From: Thermoanaerobaculia bacterium | Lineage (GTDB): Bacteria > Acidobacteriota > Thermoanaerobaculia > Multivoradales > Multivoraceae | Reading direction: 5' to 3' | DNA length: 64,000 bases | Assembly (NCBI GenBank): GCA_965116145.1 | Contig: OZ220482.1 | Coordinates: forward strand, 1,916,143-1,980,142 | Shown here: piece after piece, positions 44,441 to 48,995 of the stretch | How the letters are laid out: the number at the start of each line of letters is the position of its first letter | How positions within the stretch are numbered: position 1 is the first letter of the stretch | Notes under the pieces: generated by a model | Database searches by the model: none | What the model saw: only the letters and a program-made list of their open reading frames with translations | Told to the model about the DNA's origin: nothing | Position numbers and translations under genes: made by a program

Positions 44441-46108
44441 TCAGCGCACCGACGGGCCGTCGGGCCGGTAGCGGGTCAGCACGACCGTCTGATCGTCCCC
44501 CTGCGGCAGGCCCGCGCCGAAGCGGCGCACCTCGACATCGATGCCGGCCACGATCTCCGACAGGGGGCGCTCGCGGTGTTCCCGCAGGAACGCCTCCAGC
44601 CGGCCCTGTCCGTACTCCTCGCCGTCCGGCGACTCGCATTCCGTGATGCCGTCGCTGTACAGACAGAGGAGGCTGCCCGGCTCCATCTCCACCGGTTCTA
44701 CCCGATAGCTCGCGGAGGGAAGCAGGCCCAGCGGCAATCCGCTAGCCGGAAGCGGGCTGACCTCGCCGCCGCCGTCCACAAGCAGGCCGGGGTTGTGTCC
44801 CGCGTTGAGGTACCGGACGGCGCAGGTGCGCGGATCGATCTCGGTGAGGATCAACGTGATGAAGCGGTTCGTAGCGCTGGTTTCGACGATGTGCTTGTTC
44901 AGGCGGTCGAAGAGCTCCGGCGAGAGCTCGGCTCCCGCACGTTCTCCTACCCGTCGGCAGTCGTCGACGAGCAACCGCAACGCCGAGTCGAGAGTGGACA
45001 CGAGGAGCGCGGCCGGCATGCCCTTGCCGGTGACATCGGCGACCACGAGACCGCGACGCGCCCCGGCGAACCGAAGCGAACCGTAGTAGTCGCCGCCGAC
45101 CTGGCGCGAAGGGCGACTCCAGCCCACCGTCTCGAAGCAGCCCGCGTTCGGCATCTCGGCGGGCAGGATGTTGCGCTGGATCTCGGCCGCAAGCTCCACT
45201 TCCCGCTCCAGGCGTTCCTTCTCGAGCGCCTGCTGGTGGAGCTTCGCGTTGGTCAGTGCAATGGCAGCCTGGTTGGCGAACAGCGACAGCGCCCGATGGT
45301 CGGACGCGGCGAAGGGACCCACTCCCGTCCGGCTCTCCTTGTCGGCGACCACCAGCAGGCCGACACTGCCGCGGCCGCCGTCGCCTTCGACTGGAACCGC
45401 GAGCGAGTGTTCCGCGGCCGGGATGACGCCCGCCGCCGCTGCGCTCGGATCGGCGTCCTTGTGGCCCGAATCCGCGTCGTCCGGCATCCCGGCTGCCGAC
45501 GCCTCGATCACCTCGCGGGCGCCGCCGCCGATGGTGCCGGCAAGAGCGAGACGGCCCTCGGCGTCCCGCAGATAGAACGCGCCCCGCCGCGCGTCCAGCA
45601 GGGACACCGCTCGCAGCAGGATCTCCTCGGTCAGTTCGTCCAGGTTGAGGGTCGAGGCGATCGCCAGTCCCACGTCGTAGACCGCCTGAAGAGTCACGAC
45701 GTTGTAGTTGTCCTGGAACTTCCGATCCTTCAGTTCGTCCGCCAGCTCCCGCAGGCGCAAGCCGATGGCCAGCACCCCGGCCAGGGCGGTGTCGGCGGCC
45801 GCGCCCTCGAGGGTCCCGCCGGCGCCGTCACCGGCGCAACAGAGGACCAGGTCGTGCCCGAGACTGCGTTCACGCCTGCCAAGCGCTCCCCACGACGCGA
45901 TCGGGCCGCCGTCGCGCCGGTAGATCTGGGCGCCGTCCAGACCGACGGCCCGACACCAGTGCCTTACCAGCCGCGTCTGGGCGGCGCCGCTCTCCCAGGC
46001 AGCGATGTCCGCTGACGCCGCCAGCCGCCAGAGCTCGAGGTCCAGCCCGGCGCCGGCCGTCGATGTCGACACGGACCCCCGGGCCGAACCGGCGGCCGCC
46101 GAGGTCAC
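44441..46108 (-). CDS. GAF-domain PP2C-type serine phosphatase (RsbU/SpoIIE family)
   Basis: N-terminal GAF-like region; C-terminal PP2C/SpoIIE core (RNILPAEMP, GGDYYG, VADVTGKGMPAALL, LYSDGITE). GTG start overlaps the STAS gene stop (GTGA). Confidence 0.8.
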   Translation of the reverse strand: MTSAAAGSARGSVSTSTAGAGLDLELWRLAASADIAAWESGAAQTRLVRHWCRAVGLDGAQIYRRDGGPIASWGALGRRERSLGHDLVLCCAGDGAGGTLEGAAADTALAGVLAIGLRLRELADELKDRKFQDNYNVVTLQAVYDVGLAIASTLNLDELTEEILLRAVSLLDARRGAFYLRDAEGRLALAGTIGGGAREVIEASAAGMPDDADSGHKDADPSAAAAGVIPAAEHSLAVPVEGDGGRGSVGLLVVADKESRTGVGPFAASDHRALSLFANQAAIALTNAKLHQQALEKERLEREVELAAEIQRNILPAEMPNAGCFETVGWSRPSRQVGGDYYGSLRFAGARRGLVVADVTGKGMPAALLVSTLDSALRLLVDDCRRVGERAGAELSPELFDRLNKHIVETSATNRFITLILTEIDPRTCAVRYLNAGHNPGLLVDGGGEVSPLPASGLPLGLLPSASYRVEPVEMEPGSLLCLYSDGITECESPDGEEYGQGRLEAFLREHRERPLSEIVAGIDVEVRRFGAGLPQGDDQTVVLTRYRPDGPSVR

Positions 46109-46464
46109 GAAGCCTCGGTCCGAAGCTCGATCACCGCCGACTGTTCGTCCGGGAAGATGCTGGAGTACTGCGACAGACCCATGATACGGAAGGTCTTCTC
46201 GATGGTCGGGGTGAGATTGCAGAAGGACAACCGGCCCTCCACCTCGATCATCCTCTCGATGATCTCGATCAGGATGGAGATGCCGATCGAGTTCACGATC
46301 TTCGTGCCGGCGAGGTTCAGCAGCAGGGTCCGGTAGCCGTCGTCCAGCAGAACATACGCTGCCTCTGCGATCTCCTCACCGCCCTGGTTGTTGATGTAGC
46401 CGTCGGTATAGATCACCGCCAGGCCGTCGCGGCGTTCCACCTTCAATCTGAGTACTTCGGTCAT
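46105..46464 (-). CDS. STAS-domain anti-sigma-factor antagonist (RsbV/SpoIIAA-like)
   Basis: MTEVLRLKVERRDGLAVIYTDGYINNQGGEEI... STAS fold with phosphorylatable Ser context (KIVNSIGISIL). ATG 46464. Confidence 0.75.
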   Translation of the reverse strand: MTEVLRLKVERRDGLAVIYTDGYINNQGGEEIAEAAYVLLDDGYRTLLLNLAGTKIVNSIGISILIEIIERMIEVEGRLSFCNLTPTIEKTFRIMGLSQYSSIFPDEQSAVIELRTEAS

Positions 46465-46497
46465 GGCTGCCACCAGACTTCCTCGCTCGGCAGAGCG

Positions 46498-46990: not shown

Positions 46991-47209
46991 TCAGGCTACA
47001 AGGAAGAGCTTGAGGCAGTAGATCACCGCAGGATGAATCCGGTCGTTCAGCAGAAACCACACGAAACTGCCAACCACCACGGAAGACCAGAGCAGACCGG
47101 CGGAGACAGAACCGAGAGCCCAGGACAGGACACCCGACACGCTCTCCGGCCGCAAGACCTGCGCGGCGACGCCTCCACGGCCCAGGAAACTGAACGGCGA
47201 TCCTACCAT
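46991..47209 (-). CDS. small two-TM membrane protein upstream of the rsbW-like gene
   Basis: 72 aa: MVGSPFSFLGRGGVAAQVLRPESVSGVLSWALGSVSAGLLWSSVVVGSFVWFLLNDRIHPAVIYCLKLFLVA. GGAGG 8-10 nt upstream of ATG (GGGGGAGGTCGACGTGATG). Locally lower GC. Confidence 0.4.
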   Translation of the reverse strand: MVGSPFSFLGRGGVAAQVLRPESVSGVLSWALGSVSAGLLWSSVVVGSFVWFLLNDRIHPAVIYCLKLFLVA

Positions 47210-47504
47210 CACGTCGACCTCCCCCGTTGATGACGCCGCAGGGAAACAGCAAGCGCCTTGCCAGTCCGGCATGCAACCGGGCCAGCCGGGCGGAAAGCCC
47301 AGGTTTCATGGGGATCCTGGCGAGCAACCGCGTTCGCCGTGCCCTGACCGGCGACCAGTCATCAACGGGGCATTTTGTCTCACCAAGACGGCTCGATAAC
47401 GGTCTCAATCTCGACAGCAGGACCTTGTGCCCACCTTTTCCAACATCAGGGGCACATTGTCGCGTAATGAGCCATTTTGTCCCGACGCCGCGGGTCCGGC
47501 CGGA

Positions 47505-48995
47505 TCAGTAGCCGCCGCGCGTCAACGTGCGCCGGTGGACACCGAGCAGCCTGGCGGCGGCGCTCTTGTTGCCCCCCGTCATCCCGATGACCCGGCGCAC
47601 GTGACGGCGCTTTACCGTCTCGAGATCCAGCGGTTCCGGGCTCTGAAGACCGACCGCTCCTCCCATCAGCGACTGGATCAGGCTGCCGTCGACGACACCG
47701 TCCGCCAGGGAGGCCGCGCCCTCGACGATGTTCTGCAGTTCGCGCACGTTTCCCGGGTAGTCGTGGGCCAGCAGCAGGTTCAGGGCGGTCCGGTCGAACT
47801 GGGTCAGCTCGATCGACTCGCGGGCACAGAATCGCTCGGCGAAGTGGCGGATCAGGTGCGGGATGTCCCGACGCCGCTCCCGCAGCGGCGGCAGCTCCAC
47901 GCTGATCCCCTTCAGCCGGTAGTAGAGATCCTCGCGGAAGCGGCCCTCCTCGACCAGCCGTTCCAGCGGCTGGTGGGTTGCGGCAACGACGCGCGTGTCG
48001 ACGGCGATCGCCCGCTGGCCGCCGACCCGCACGATCTCCCGTTCCTGGAGGGCGCGCAGGAGCTTGACCTGCAGGGCGACGTCAAGGTCGGCCACCTCGT
48101 CCAGGAACAGGGTGCCGCCCGCGGCGAGCTCGAAGCGGCCAAGACGCGCCCGCACCCCGGTGGCGACACCGCCCTCGATGCCGAACAGCTCGCTCTCGAG
48201 CAGGCTTTCCGGCAGCGCAGCACAGTTGACGGCAACCAGGGGACCGGACCGCTCCGACCGCTGGTGCAGGAAGGCCGCCATGAGCTCCTTGCCGGTGCCG
48301 CTCTCACCTCGCAGCAGGACGCTCACGTTGCGCGGCGCGACCCGGTCGATCACCTCCAGAATGCGGCGCATCGCCGGCGCATGGGCCACGATCCGCCGGC
48401 CGCCGACCTCCGCGAGATCGTCGAGGCGCTCCTTGAGCAGCTTGTTCTCCTCGGCCAGCCGTTCACGCGATACGACCAGCCTCTCCACCTGGCGCAGGCC
48501 ATCCAGGGCGACGCCGGCGAGCGCGGCGACGGAACGCAGGAACCGCCGGTCGCCGTCGCTGAAGCCCCGTTCGTCCTGGCCGCGCACCTCCTTGTCCAGT
48601 ATCGCGACAAAGCCCAGCACGGCATCCCGGGACACAAGCGGCGCGGCGAGCAGGGCGTGGAACTCGCGACCCGCCAGGGAGCCGCGGCTTCGCGCCAGAA
48701 CGTCGTTCCGGGCGAGCAGGTCGTCCCACAACGGGCCGGCAAGCAGGGTCTCGGCAGGCGGAGAGCTGCCGCCGAAGCCGACCGTCGACACCGACCGTGC
48801 GCCCCCGATCCGATCGCGGGTGACGGCCGCGGCCGCCGCCGGGTCGACGACGGCGCAGAGCCGCTGCAGGAGATCGTCCAGCAGACCCCGTTCGGACTCG
48901 TGGGAATGCAGCGCGACGACGAGGTCGTAGAGGGTCTCGAGCTGCAGCCGCTGCCGGCGGCCGGCGAGGTCGGCGGACGGCCTGCGGGCGACCAC
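47505..48995 (-). CDS. sigma-54-dependent transcriptional activator with N-terminal GAF domain (NifA/FhlA-like)
   Basis: GAF region; AAA+ sigma-54 interaction domain (GESGTGKE, GAFTGA-like GIEGGVATG, ELFG, DYPGNVRELQN); C-terminal Fis-type HTH (SAAARLLGVHRRTLTR). GTG 48995 with AGGGGA RBS, 13 nt after uvrA stop. Confidence 0.85.
   Translation of the reverse strand: MVARRPSADLAGRRQRLQLETLYDLVVALHSHESERGLLDDLLQRLCAVVDPAAAAAVTRDRIGGARSVSTVGFGGSSPPAETLLAGPLWDDLLARNDVLARSRGSLAGREFHALLAAPLVSRDAVLGFVAILDKEVRGQDERGFSDGDRRFLRSVAALAGVALDGLRQVERLVVSRERLAEENKLLKERLDDLAEVGGRRIVAHAPAMRRILEVIDRVAPRNVSVLLRGESGTGKELMAAFLHQRSERSGPLVAVNCAALPESLLESELFGIEGGVATGVRARLGRFELAAGGTLFLDEVADLDVALQVKLLRALQEREIVRVGGQRAIAVDTRVVAATHQPLERLVEEGRFREDLYYRLKGISVELPPLRERRRDIPHLIRHFAERFCARESIELTQFDRTALNLLLAHDYPGNVRELQNIVEGAASLADGVVDGSLIQSLMGGAVGLQSPEPLDLETVKRRHVRRVIGMTGGNKSAAARLLGVHRRTLTRGGY

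What the first reader, a model, noticed from the sequence alone, without database searches (positions are those of the whole stretch)
44441..48995. RsbW-RsbV-RsbU(GAF-PP2C) partner-switching module with no sigma factor, next to a GAF sigma-54 activator
The kinase/anti-sigma (46498..46941), STAS antagonist (46105..46464) and a 555-aa GAF-PP2C phosphatase (44441..46108) are collinear and stop-start coupled. No sigB/sigF-type sigma gene follows. Immediately upstream are a GGAGG-led 72-aa two-TM ORF and a GAF-domain sigma-54 enhancer-binding protein. The output of this partner-switch is therefore unknown; comparable Gram-negative modules such as BtrUWV regulate secretion systems or biofilm rather than a sigma factor.
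Basis: partly seen in the sequence, partly recalled or inferred. Interest (0 to 1): 0.55.

Follow-up and report, generated by a model that had tools for sequence, protein, structure and literature searches.

The report
Sigma-54-driven partner switch without sigma factor
An uncultured Acidobacteria genome carries a conserved five-gene regulatory cassette: a sigma-54 activator switches on a small operon encoding a kinase, its phospho-target and a phosphatase (a "partner switch"), no sigma factor is attached, and this is a fairly ordinary new example of a known class whose target is still unknown.

Summary
Window 44441-48992 (minus strand) encodes a GAF-AAA+-HTH enhancer-binding protein (EBP), a small hydrophobic protein, an RsbW-type kinase, a STAS protein and a GAF-PP2C phosphatase.

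- **No sigma factor:** no sigma-70-family gene lies in the 64 kb or within +-10 kb of 13 orthologous loci.
- **New link:** the EBP and the switch are physically wired together. A sigma-54 promoter (TGGCA-N6-CTTGC, 47248-47263) with three palindromic enhancer boxes sits before the small ORF. Its core is invariant in 14/14 loci (Thermoanaerobaculia/Holophagales MAGs).
- **Switch chemistry:** STAS Ser59, the kinase N/G1 boxes and the PP2C aspartates are conserved.
- **STAS is the hub:** mean pairwise identity is 73% for STAS, 55% for kinase and phosphatase, 74% for UvrA. This favours a "non-canonical" switch in which STAS carries the output.
- **Closest analogue:** Vibrio fischeri SypG (sigma-54 EBP) driving sypA/sypE.
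- **Oddity:** the EBP reads GVATGV where GAFTGA is expected. This is a widespread, almost undescribed GAF-linked subfamily.

Sigma-less switches are an established class. I rate this a modest new variant, interest about 0.37. The target is unresolved.

The parts
47505..48992 (-). Enhancer-binding protein: GAF - AAA+ (Sigma54_activat) - HTH_8, 495 aa. The start at 48992 or 48995 lies 13-16 nt after the uvrA stop. The L1 loop reads ESELFGIEGGVATGV (motif begins at about 48197) instead of GAFTGA.
   Evidence: Pfam. Best solved relatives are ZraR and NifA. Walker A GESGTGKE and Walker B LFLDE are intact. GVATGV is invariant in 13 orthologues. Synteny with the operon holds in 12 of 13 relatives.
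47369..47481 (-). Three candidate enhancer (UAS) boxes with consensus GRCA-N3-TGYC and extended palindrome GCGACA-N3-TGTCGC, at 47471-47481, 47451-47461 and 47369-47379. These are offsets of about -218, -198 and -116 from the -24 element.
   Evidence: The same three positions are occupied across relatives that share only about 50% protein identity. Clusters of at least two strict boxes within 130 nt occur only here in 331 kb of window plus orthologous loci. That the EBP binds them is inferred, not shown.
47248..47263 (-). Sigma-54 (-24/-12) promoter TGGCAAGGCGCTTGCT.
   Evidence: 2 matches at <=1 mismatch in 64 kb, 0.88 expected. The TGGC...TTGC core is invariant in 14/14 loci while the spacer varies. 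It lies 19-40 nt upstream of the ribosome-binding site of the small ORF. No sigma-70-type promoter or intrinsic terminator was found in 43300-49300.
46991..47209 (-). First cistron: a small hydrophobic protein (72 aa here, 51 aa in most relatives). It has one TM-length segment, an HD.IHP turn and a 12-aa hydrophobic C-terminal tail.
   Evidence: GGGGGAGG lies 8 nt upstream. It is conserved in 14 loci, with synonymous DNA changes. No Pfam or NCBIfam family matches.
46498..46941 (-). RsbW/SpoIIAB-type serine kinase (HATPase_c_2), 147 aa.
   Evidence: Pfam 3e-23. Best PDB matches are RsbW 6m36 and SpoIIAB 1til/1l0o. The N-box EACINA.EHS and the G1 box D.G.GF are invariant in 14 loci. It scores below the RsbW equivalog cut-off, 60.9 vs 145 bits.
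46105..46464 (-). Single-domain STAS protein, 119 aa, with phospho-acceptor Ser59.
   Evidence: Pfam STAS 8e-12. Ser59 aligns to the SpoIIAA phospho-serine, the position mutated to Ala in 1tid. TKI[VI]NSIGISIL is invariant, and 48 of 120 columns are invariant. It is the most conserved component, with 72.8% mean pairwise identity.
44441..46108 (-). Sensor phosphatase, 555 aa: N-terminal alpha/beta domain (residues 18-95), long helix, GAF (156-267), long helix (268-314), PP2C/SpoIIE (325-547).
   Evidence: Pfam. D340, D358, D486 and D538/D539 are invariant in alignment A2. PDB matches are the RssB, Rv1364c and SpoIIE PP2C domains. AlphaFold2 model has mean pLDDT 77.8.

Best explanation
This is a self-contained regulatory cassette conserved in Thermoanaerobaculia/Holophagales Acidobacteriota.

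Step 1 (anatomy shown by sequence, function inferred). The GAF-AAA+-HTH enhancer-binding protein binds three palindromic boxes about 115-220 bp upstream of a sigma-54 promoter. When its GAF domain senses a signal, it drives sigma-54 RNA polymerase to transcribe a four-gene operon: small hydrophobic protein, RsbW-type kinase, STAS protein and GAF-PP2C phosphatase.

Step 2 (inferred from conserved catalytic residues and family knowledge). The kinase phosphorylates STAS on Ser59. The phosphatase removes that phosphate when its own sensor domains are triggered, with activation passing through the long helical linker.

Step 3 (inferred, least certain). No sigma factor is linked in any relative, and STAS is far more constrained than its kinase. 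I therefore favour a 'non-canonical' partner switch. In this model, unphosphorylated STAS is the output that acts on an unlinked or unknown partner, and the kinase is mainly its off-switch. This is how SypA/SypE, RbaV/RbaW and HsbA/HsbR are thought to work.

The small hydrophobic protein, always the first cistron, is a candidate membrane partner or anchor of the switch.
For: - **Domains:**
- **Five-gene synteny:** present in the window plus 13 loci, down to about 42-50% identity.
- **Promoter:** the TGGC...TTGC core is invariant in 14/14 loci with a free spacer.
- **Enhancer boxes:** they sit at fixed offsets and occur as clusters nowhere else in 331 kb.
- **Boxes travel with the operon, not the EBP gene:** the promoter and boxes stay with the operon where two genes are inserted after the EBP (L005, L010) and where the EBP gene is not nearby (L006).
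- **Single transcription unit:** no sigma-70 promoter or terminator lies inside the block.
- **Switch chemistry:** Ser59, the kinase boxes and the PP2C aspartates are conserved.
- **Phosphatase architecture:** the GAF / long helix / PP2C layout matches the linker-controlled phosphatase class described in PMC12143880.
- **No sigma gene:**
- **STAS is the most constrained part:** 72.8% mean identity, against 55.2% for the kinase, 54.6% for the phosphatase and 74.1% for UvrA.
- **Precedents:** sigma-less switches with STAS as output are reviewed in PMC8256260 and shown in PMC3999984. A sigma-54 EBP driving a STAS/kinase-phosphatase pair is described for syp in PMC4517449.
- **GVATGV is compatible with sigma-54:** GVATGV-type EBPs sit next to sigma-54 promoters in two other independent contexts, L084 and DVUA0100 (PMC4641369).
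Against: - Nothing here shows what STAS or the kinase binds. The conservation argument is indirect.
- I did not measure the STAS-versus-kinase conservation ratio in canonical sigma-B or sigma-F systems as a control.
- The EBP lacks the GAFTGA phenylalanine, which published mutagenesis treats as essential for sigma-54 activation (PMC3162934). Homologues without GAFTGA often act with sigma-70 (PMC6158489).
- rpoN itself is not in the window, and the rest of the genome could not be surveyed. An unlinked cognate sigma factor therefore cannot be excluded.
- All 14 loci come from uncultured MAGs. Operon structure, transcription start and enhancer binding are predictions.
Confidence: 0.55

Rival explanations
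1. Canonical anti-sigma logic with an unlinked target. The RsbW-type kinase sequesters a sigma-70-family factor (group 3 or ECF) encoded elsewhere in the chromosome, and dephosphorylated STAS releases it. The sigma-54/EBP layer only makes the module inducible.
For: - The kinase's best matches among solved and curated proteins are genuine anti-sigma factors: RsbW 6m36 and SpoIIAB 1til/1l0o, and NF003144/TIGR01924/TIGR01925.
- From my own knowledge, unlinked targets are documented, for example sigma-S for CrsR/CrsA of Shewanella (cited in PMC8256260).
- Only 64 kb of a roughly 3.7-Mb genome was visible.
Against: - No sigma gene is co-conserved within +-10 kb in 13 relatives, or within 64 kb here.
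- The kinase scores far below the RsbW and SpoIIAB equivalog cut-offs, 61 vs 145 bits.
- The kinase is the least conserved part of the switch, whereas a protein that must keep two partners would be expected to be at least as constrained as STAS.
Confidence: 0.27
2. Closed feedback on sigma-54 transcription. The kinase (or STAS) binds the adjacent GVATGV activator, or sigma-54 holoenzyme, as an anti-activator. The partner switch would then gate sigma-54-dependent transcription itself, with the small membrane protein as sensor. This would be analogous in logic to PspF/PspA/PspBC or HrpS/HrpV/HrpG.
For: - The inhibitor-like kinase lies in the predicted regulon of the EBP, which is the usual design for anti-factors (from my own knowledge: sigma-B/rsbW, PspF/pspA).
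- The EBP is the only regulator co-conserved with the module.
- The first cistron is a conserved small hydrophobic protein, as in psp.
- The EBP has an unusual sigma-54-contact loop.
Against: - I know of no precedent for a HATPase_c_2 or STAS protein binding an AAA+ activator or sigma-54.
- No PspA-like protein is present.
- Linkage to the EBP is loosened or lost in L005, L006, L010 and L013.
- Six other GVATGV EBPs have no RsbW or STAS neighbours, so the loop variant is not tied to partner switches.
- If the operon is the EBP's only target, a closed loop would have no output.
Confidence: 0.08
3. The adjacency is not a regulatory link. The GVATGV protein would be an atypical, sigma-54-independent EBP homologue (like TyrR, VpsR, HupR or NtrX) that acts with sigma-70 or as a repressor, and the sigma-54 promoter of the operon would be served by some other activator.
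For: - The central Phe of GAFTGA is reported as essential, and GAFTGA-less homologues are sigma-70-dependent (PMC3162934, PMC6158489).
- The same window encodes a canonical GAFTGA activator at 56641-58005.
- Only 1 of 6 other GVATGV EBPs sampled has a clear sigma-54 promoter next to it.
Against: - Walker A and B motifs are intact, unlike VpsR.
- The Thr of the loop and the flanking ESELFG are kept.
- The EBP, three boxes and sigma-54 promoter are co-conserved in order across the clade.
- Independent GVATGV-plus-sigma-54-promoter pairs exist in L084 and for DVUA0100 (PMC4641369).
- The box palindromes are typical of HTH_8 activator sites at a typical enhancer distance.
Confidence: 0.1

Closest known systems
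Vibrio fischeri syp regulators: SypG (sigma-54 EBP), SypA (STAS), SypE (kinase/phosphatase)
   Same: A sigma-54-dependent activator directly drives the locus whose first gene is a single-domain STAS protein. STAS is switched by serine phosphorylation (Ser56). No sigma factor is involved, and the STAS target is unknown (PMC4517449, PMC8256260).
   Different: - SypG is a receiver-domain response regulator with a canonical loop; here the activator is a GAF one-component protein with GVATGV.
- SypE fuses kinase, REC and PP2C in one protein; here the kinase and the GAF-PP2C are separate.
- syp is embedded in an 18-gene polysaccharide locus that gives the output context; here the operon stands alone among housekeeping genes and begins with a small hydrophobic protein.
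Bordetella BtrU/BtrW/BtrV and Rhodobacter capsulatus RbaY/RbaW/RbaV
   Same: Both are PP2C + HATPase_c_2 kinase + STAS triads in Gram-negative bacteria for which no cognate sigma factor was found. Genetics point to the STAS protein as the determinant output (PMC3999984, PMC8256260).
   Different: - Btr is tied to a type III secretion locus. From my own knowledge, that locus carries the ECF sigma BtrS nearby.
- RbaY has a REC sensor and is unlinked from rbaVW.
- Neither is reported to be sigma-54-driven or to include a small membrane protein.
Bacillus subtilis RsbU/RsbV/RsbW-sigma-B and SpoIIE/SpoIIAA/SpoIIAB-sigma-F (canonical partner switches)
   Same: Same three folds. The phospho-serine position is the same, as are the kinase N/G1/G2 boxes and the PP2C metal ligands.
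   Different: - The sigma gene is in the same operon in Bacillus and is absent here.
- The proteins here fall well below the equivalog thresholds.
- Transcription here is from a sigma-54 promoter rather than a sigma-B or sigma-H/F promoter.
GAF-PP2C stress phosphatases (C. difficile RsbZ, S. coelicolor OsaC) and the coiled-coil linker mechanism
   Same: N-terminal GAF-type sensor domains are joined to the PPM domain by a long helix. PMC12143880 proposes that such linkers dimerise and activate the phosphatase.
   Different: RsbZ and OsaC feed known sigma-B pathways. The N-terminal domain here (residues 18-95) matches no Pfam family.
Pseudomonas aeruginosa SiaABCD (and HsbR/HsbA-HsbD)
   Same: These are phosphatase/kinase/switch-protein modules whose output is a non-sigma effector, a diguanylate cyclase (PMC7647112, PMC8457831). 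SiaA is the best NCBIfam hit of the PP2C domain here.
   Different: - The SiaA hit is only 50 bits against a cut-off of 700.
- No diguanylate cyclase is linked here; the nearest GGDEF gene is 33 kb away at 12240-13097.
- From my own knowledge, SiaC is not a STAS protein.
DVUA0100 of Desulfovibrio vulgaris (GVATGV enhancer-binding protein)
   Same: It has the identical GVATGV replacement of GAFTGA and is still co-localised with predicted sigma-54 promoters (PMC4641369).
   Different: It is predicted to regulate type III secretion operons, it sits inside its own target operon, and it has no partner-switch genes.

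Membership tests
Canonical sigma-B/sigma-F-type partner-switching module | HATPase_c_2 serine kinase with N, G1 and G2 boxes | tested here: met
   Pfam 3e-23. Aligns to RsbW and SpoIIAB. The boxes are conserved in 14 loci.
Canonical sigma-B/sigma-F-type partner-switching module | Single-domain STAS antagonist with the conserved phosphorylatable serine | tested here: met
   Ser59 aligns with the SpoIIAA phospho-site and is invariant in 14/14 loci.
Canonical sigma-B/sigma-F-type partner-switching module | PP2C/PPM phosphatase with intact metal-binding aspartates | tested here: met
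   SpoIIE domain 3e-44. D340, D358, D486 and D538/D539 are invariant.
Canonical sigma-B/sigma-F-type partner-switching module | Cognate sigma-70-family gene in the operon or co-conserved nearby | tested here: not met
   None in the 64-kb window or within +-10 kb of 13 orthologous loci.
Canonical sigma-B/sigma-F-type partner-switching module | Equivalog-level similarity to RsbW/SpoIIAB and RsbV/SpoIIAA | tested here: not met
   NCBIfam: RsbW 60.9 vs 145 bits; SpoIIAB 46.8 vs 135; ant_ant_sig 39.9 vs 53.45; SpoIIAA 29 vs 114.75.
Canonical sigma-B/sigma-F-type partner-switching module | The kinase physically sequesters a sigma factor | not testable with these tools
   Needs pull-down or two-hybrid tests.
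Non-canonical (sigma-less) partner switch with STAS as output (SypA, RbaV, BtrV, HmpV, HsbA type) | Kinase + STAS + phosphatase present with no linked sigma factor | tested here: met
   The class is defined in PMC8256260.
Non-canonical (sigma-less) partner switch with STAS as output (SypA, RbaV, BtrV, HmpV, HsbA type) | Unphosphorylated STAS acts on a target other than the kinase | not testable with these tools
   There is only indirect support: STAS is as conserved as UvrA and much more conserved than the kinase.
Sigma-54-dependent operon with a dedicated bacterial enhancer-binding protein | -24 GG / -12 GC promoter at the correct spacing, conserved upstream of the first cistron | tested here: met
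   TGGCAAGGCGCTTGCT at 47248-47263. The core is invariant in 14/14 loci.
Sigma-54-dependent operon with a dedicated bacterial enhancer-binding protein | Upstream activator sequences at about 100-200 bp | tested here: met
   Three palindromic boxes sit at -218, -198 and -116, are positionally conserved, and are unique to this site. Binding is inferred.
Sigma-54-dependent operon with a dedicated bacterial enhancer-binding protein | AAA+ domain with Walker A/B and a C-terminal HTH | tested here: met
   Sigma54_activat 2e-60 and HTH_8. GESGTGKE and LFLDE are present.
Sigma-54-dependent operon with a dedicated bacterial enhancer-binding protein | Canonical GAFTGA sigma-54-contact loop | tested here: not met
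   The loop is GVATGV in the window and in 13 orthologues. The same variant occurs next to sigma-54 promoters in L084 and DVUA0100 (PMC4641369), so function as a sigma-54 activator remains likely but unproven.
Sigma-54-dependent operon with a dedicated bacterial enhancer-binding protein | rpoN present in the genome | not testable with these tools
   rpoN is not in the window. A canonical GAFTGA response-regulator EBP at 56641-58005 implies a sigma-54 system exists.
Psp-type anti-activator system (PspF/PspA/PspBC) | PspA-family anti-activator and PspB/PspC membrane proteins | tested here: not met
   No PspA, PspB or PspC domains are present. The small protein matches no Pfam or NCBIfam family. 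Only the circuit logic could be similar.

The most novel reading that the evidence does not exclude
The partner switch gates sigma-54 transcription rather than a sigma-70-family factor. In this reading the RsbW-type kinase (or STAS) is an anti-activator of the adjacent F-less (GVATGV) enhancer-binding protein or of sigma-54 holoenzyme, and the conserved small membrane protein is the sensor. That would be an Rsb-built functional analogue of PspF/PspA/PspBC. A weaker but likelier novelty is that GVATGV marks a large, overlooked, GAF-coupled subfamily of enhancer-binding proteins that engage sigma-54 without the 'essential' phenylalanine.
Probability: 0.08. Interest if true: 0.8.

Novelty: new variant of a known kind. 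Interest (0 to 1): 0.37.

Why it matters
Partner switches without a sigma factor are common in genomes, but their targets are mostly unknown. This cassette is compact and strongly conserved. Its only co-conserved partners are a dedicated sigma-54 activator and a tiny membrane protein, which narrows the list of candidate targets to test.

It also gives a clean natural case for sigma-54 specialists. An activator subfamily lacks the GAFTGA phenylalanine, which is considered indispensable, yet it sits beside textbook sigma-54 promoters. If these proteins do activate, the accepted picture of how the L1 loop engages sigma-54 needs a second solution.

The practical impact is limited. All carriers are uncultured Acidobacteria MAGs, so the work would have to be done heterologously or in vitro.

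Tried and rejected
1. **Sigma factor nearby: rejected.** tblastn, custom HMMs, Pfam on about 55 window ORFs and neighbour tables found none.
2. **Known RNA element in the leader: rejected.** An Rfam E-value scan of 43000-53000 found only tRNA-Ala.
3. **The two GAF domains as close paralogues sensing the same ligand: not supported.** They share only 25% identity, E = 0.002, which is too weak to argue either way.
4. **PCMT (43564-44397) as part of the operon: rejected.** It is adjacent in some relatives, but in others it is separated by opposite-strand genes or several kb.
5. **GVATGV as a marker of partner-switch-associated activators: rejected.** Six unrelated GVATGV EBPs have no RsbW or STAS neighbours.
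6. **The EBP's enhancer boxes also at the conserved sigma-54-like promoter before lpxC: not found**.
7. **Source record of the window's own phosphatase:** not on record.
The closer relative L001 came from the look-up of encoding contigs instead.
9. **Not attempted:**
   - A further homologue search with the kinase or STAS, because the top 120 hits would be saturated by orthologues, as happened for the phosphatase.

Full report
**1. What is there**

The window is about 70% GC, so I called genes by codon-position GC and confirmed them with Pfam.

On the minus strand the order is:
- smpB (51852-52373)
- uvrA (49009-51855)
- a GAF-AAA+-HTH_8 enhancer-binding protein, EBP (47505-48992)
- a 72-aa hydrophobic ORF (46991-47209)
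- a HATPase_c_2 kinase (46498-46941)
- a STAS protein (46105-46464)
- a GAF-PP2C phosphatase (44441-46108)
- PCMT (43564-44397)

tRNA-Ala lies on the other strand at 43348-43423.

The Pfam E-values are 2e-60 for the EBP, 3e-23 for the kinase, 8e-12 for STAS and 3e-44 for the PP2C, so these are not chance matches.

Two details need correcting:
- Only the STAS/PP2C junction overlaps (GTGA).
- The small protein has one TM-length hydrophobic segment plus a 12-residue hydrophobic tail, not two clear TM helices.

**2. Source and relatives**

The phosphatase is identical to a protein on a 3.73-Mb contig. Its orthologues fall in two tiers, 70-83% and 48-59% identity, and are labelled Holophagales, Thermoanaerobaculia or Acidobacteria MAGs.

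I fetched three neighbourhoods by exact protein look-up (L001-L003) and 80 loci from named genomes. tblastn of the window proteins against all loci finds the block EBP / small ORF / kinase / STAS / GAF-PP2C in the window plus L001-L013. All of these belong to that acidobacterial clade. More distant GAF-PP2C genes (<=37% identity) sit in different arrangements.

**3. The link between the activator and the switch**

The EBP-to-small-ORF spacer contains TGGCAAGGCGCTTGCT (47248-47263). At <=1 mismatch to the sigma-54 consensus, the window has two matches against 0.88 expected.

Alignment of the spacer from four loci shows CTGGCA-N6-CTTGC and the GGGAGG ribosome-binding site as invariant islands in otherwise diverged DNA. 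Across all 14 loci the TGGC...TTGC core is invariant while the spacer varies; L012 and L013 use TGGCC.

Three palindromic boxes (GRCA-N3-TGYC, extended GCGACA-N3-TGTCGC) sit at about -218, -198 and -116 in nearly all loci. Clusters of such boxes occur nowhere else in 331 kb of window plus orthologous loci.

The boxes and promoter stay attached to the operon in two informative situations:
- where two unrelated genes are inserted after the EBP (L005, L010);
- where the EBP gene is not within 10 kb (L006).

No sigma-70-type promoter or intrinsic terminator lies within 43300-49300, and Rfam finds no RNA element in the leader.

**4. The switch proteins are competent**

- **STAS:** Ser59 aligns to the SpoIIAA phospho-serine, the residue mutated in 1tid. 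Ser59 and the surrounding TKI[VI]NSIGISIL are invariant in 14/14 loci.
- **Kinase:** it aligns to RsbW (6m36) and SpoIIAB, with conserved N and G1 boxes.
- **Phosphatase:** the PP2C aspartates D340, D358, D486 and D538/D539 are invariant.
- **Phosphatase architecture:** an AlphaFold2 model (pLDDT 77.8) shows an N-terminal alpha/beta domain, a long helix, GAF, a long helix and PP2C. This is the sensor/helical-linker/PPM layout described for RsbZ and related phosphatases (PMC12143880).

**5. No sigma factor**

tblastn, purpose-built HMMs and Pfam over the whole window find no sigma-70-family gene in 64 kb or in the 13 orthologous neighbourhoods. The same searches did detect sigma genes in unrelated loci.

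The rest of the genome could not be searched.

**6. Which component carries the output?**

Mean all-against-all identity over the 14 loci (UvrA was recovered in only 7 of them):

| Protein | Mean pairwise identity |
|---|---|
| UvrA | 74.1% |
| STAS | 72.8% |
| EBP | 61.4% |
| Kinase | 55.2% |
| Phosphatase | 54.6% |

A 119-aa protein as constrained as UvrA, and far more constrained than its own kinase, looks like an interaction hub with more partners than the kinase and phosphatase. This fits the 'non-canonical' model in which unphosphorylated STAS is the output (SypA, RbaV, BtrV, HmpV; PMC8256260, PMC3999984).

The argument is indirect, and I did not run the same measurement on canonical systems as a control.

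**7. An unexpected feature of the activator**

Where GAFTGA should be, the EBP reads ESELFGIEGGVATGV. This is invariant in 13 orthologues, while Walker A and B are intact. The other EBP in the window (56641-58005, REC-AAA+-HTH) has canonical GAFTGA.

The literature treats the central Phe as essential and regards GAFTGA-less homologues as sigma-70-dependent (PMC3162934, PMC6158489).

An exhaustive representative search (184,687 hits) shows G[VT]ATGV in about a third of the best 150. All nine members I tested carry a GAF domain directly before the AAA+ domain. Some of them sit behind Pkinase-AAA_16-TPR or FHA modules.

The only paper in the library that mentions the motif in an EBP is the D. vulgaris sigma-54 regulome study. 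There, DVUA0100 (GVATGV) is predicted to drive sigma-54 promoters of type III secretion operons (PMC4641369).

In L084, an unrelated GVATGV EBP is followed by TGCGCA palindromes and a perfect TGGCACGCTCCGTGCT before a DnaJ-like operon. Five other members showed no clear adjacent promoter, and none has RsbW or STAS neighbours.

I conclude that GVATGV is most likely a functional sigma-54-contact variant. It is not specific to partner switches.

**8. Comparison with known systems**

- **Closest analogue: the V. fischeri syp system.** The sigma-54 activator SypG directly drives the locus. Its first gene is the STAS protein SypA, which is switched by SypE and acts by an unknown mechanism (PMC4517449).
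- **Differences from syp:**
  - the sensor is GAF rather than REC;
  - the kinase and phosphatase are separate proteins;
  - there is no polysaccharide locus;
  - a small hydrophobic first cistron is conserved;
  - the EBP has the GVATGV loop.
- **Membership in RsbW, RsbV and RsbU proper fails.** NCBIfam scores are 61 vs 145 bits for RsbW, 40 vs 53 for the antagonist superfamily, and 50 vs 700 for the best PP2C model, SiaA. The cassette works like a partner switch, but it is not an Rsb orthologue.

**9. Verdict**

This is a sigma-54/EBP-driven, sigma-less partner-switch cassette conserved in one acidobacterial clade.

Sigma-less switches, and even a sigma-54-driven one, are already known, so this is a modest new variant of a known kind. 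The output remains unresolved. My rough probabilities are:
- STAS as the output acting on an unlinked partner: about 0.45-0.55;
- an unlinked sigma factor: about 0.27;
- the EBP is not the activator of this promoter: about 0.1;
- feedback on the EBP or sigma-54: about 0.08.

Interest is 0.37. The F-less activator loop is the part most likely to interest a specialist.

Noticed in passing
window 52618-52633 (+); L001 3345-3360 (-); L002 3312-3327 (-); L003 2435-2450 (-): A second conserved sigma-54-like element, TGGCAC-N5-NTGCT, lies 13-16 nt upstream of the called lpxC start in the relatives (in the window it lies within the longest lpxC ORF, just upstream of the probable start). GG and GC are kept while the spacer varies (GATCC, GACTC, AGACC). 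This would imply sigma-54 input into lipid A synthesis and a near-leaderless transcript. None of the operon's enhancer boxes accompany it.
   Followed up: partly
window about 48150-48197 (-), and proteins P0121-P0270: The GVATGV (or GTATGV) replacement of the GAFTGA loop defines a large EBP subfamily, always with a GAF domain directly N-terminal. It includes proteins of 1,600-1,800 aa with the layout Pkinase-AAA_16-TPR-GAF-AAA+-HTH, and FHA-GAF-EBPs. I found only one literature mention, DVUA0100 (PMC4641369).
   Followed up: partly
L084 7640-7950: An unrelated GVATGV EBP (P0160) is followed by three TGCGCA-N..-TGCGCA palindromes and a perfect TGGCACGCTCCGTGCT promoter before a DnaJ-like gene and a 104-aa ORF. 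This is a possible sigma-54-controlled chaperone operon.
   Followed up: partly
window 53766-58005 (+): DUF4390 protein, then a HAMP-PAS-HisKA-HATPase kinase, then a REC-AAA+-HTH_8 response regulator with canonical GAFTGA. The last two genes overlap stop to start. This NtrY/NtrX-like layout is conserved next to lpxC in L001 and L003.
   Followed up: no
L005 5726-6681; L010 7699-8636: Two extra genes (93-97 aa and 178-214 aa, no family assigned here) are inserted between the EBP and the enhancer boxes in two relatives. They split the EBP from its predicted target without disturbing the boxes or the promoter.
   Followed up: no
window 43564-44397 (-); L004 14838-16317; L008 13882-15406: The protein-L-isoaspartate O-methyltransferase downstream of the operon has a signal-peptide-like N-terminal extension (...SAVVALAGVCGFAAAGAAAQ). 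It is tandemly duplicated in L004 and L008.
   Followed up: no
window 42583-43288 (-): Two adjacent small proteins carry DUF883_C-like C-terminal glycine-zipper membrane anchors. The pair is conserved near the cassette in L001 and L002.
   Followed up: no
window 12240-13097 (+) and about 13109-15200 (-): A GGDEF diguanylate cyclase sits next to a large Wzy_C/O-antigen-ligase-like membrane protein. Several long ORFs in 11.2-15.4 kb and 30.7-35 kb have no Pfam match.
   Followed up: no
L009 5819-6847; L012 4412-5278; L013 1332-2279: Additional PP2C-type phosphatase genes (27-34% identical to the cassette's PP2C) lie upstream of the EBP in three relatives. This suggests extra phosphatase inputs in some lineages.
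   Followed up: no
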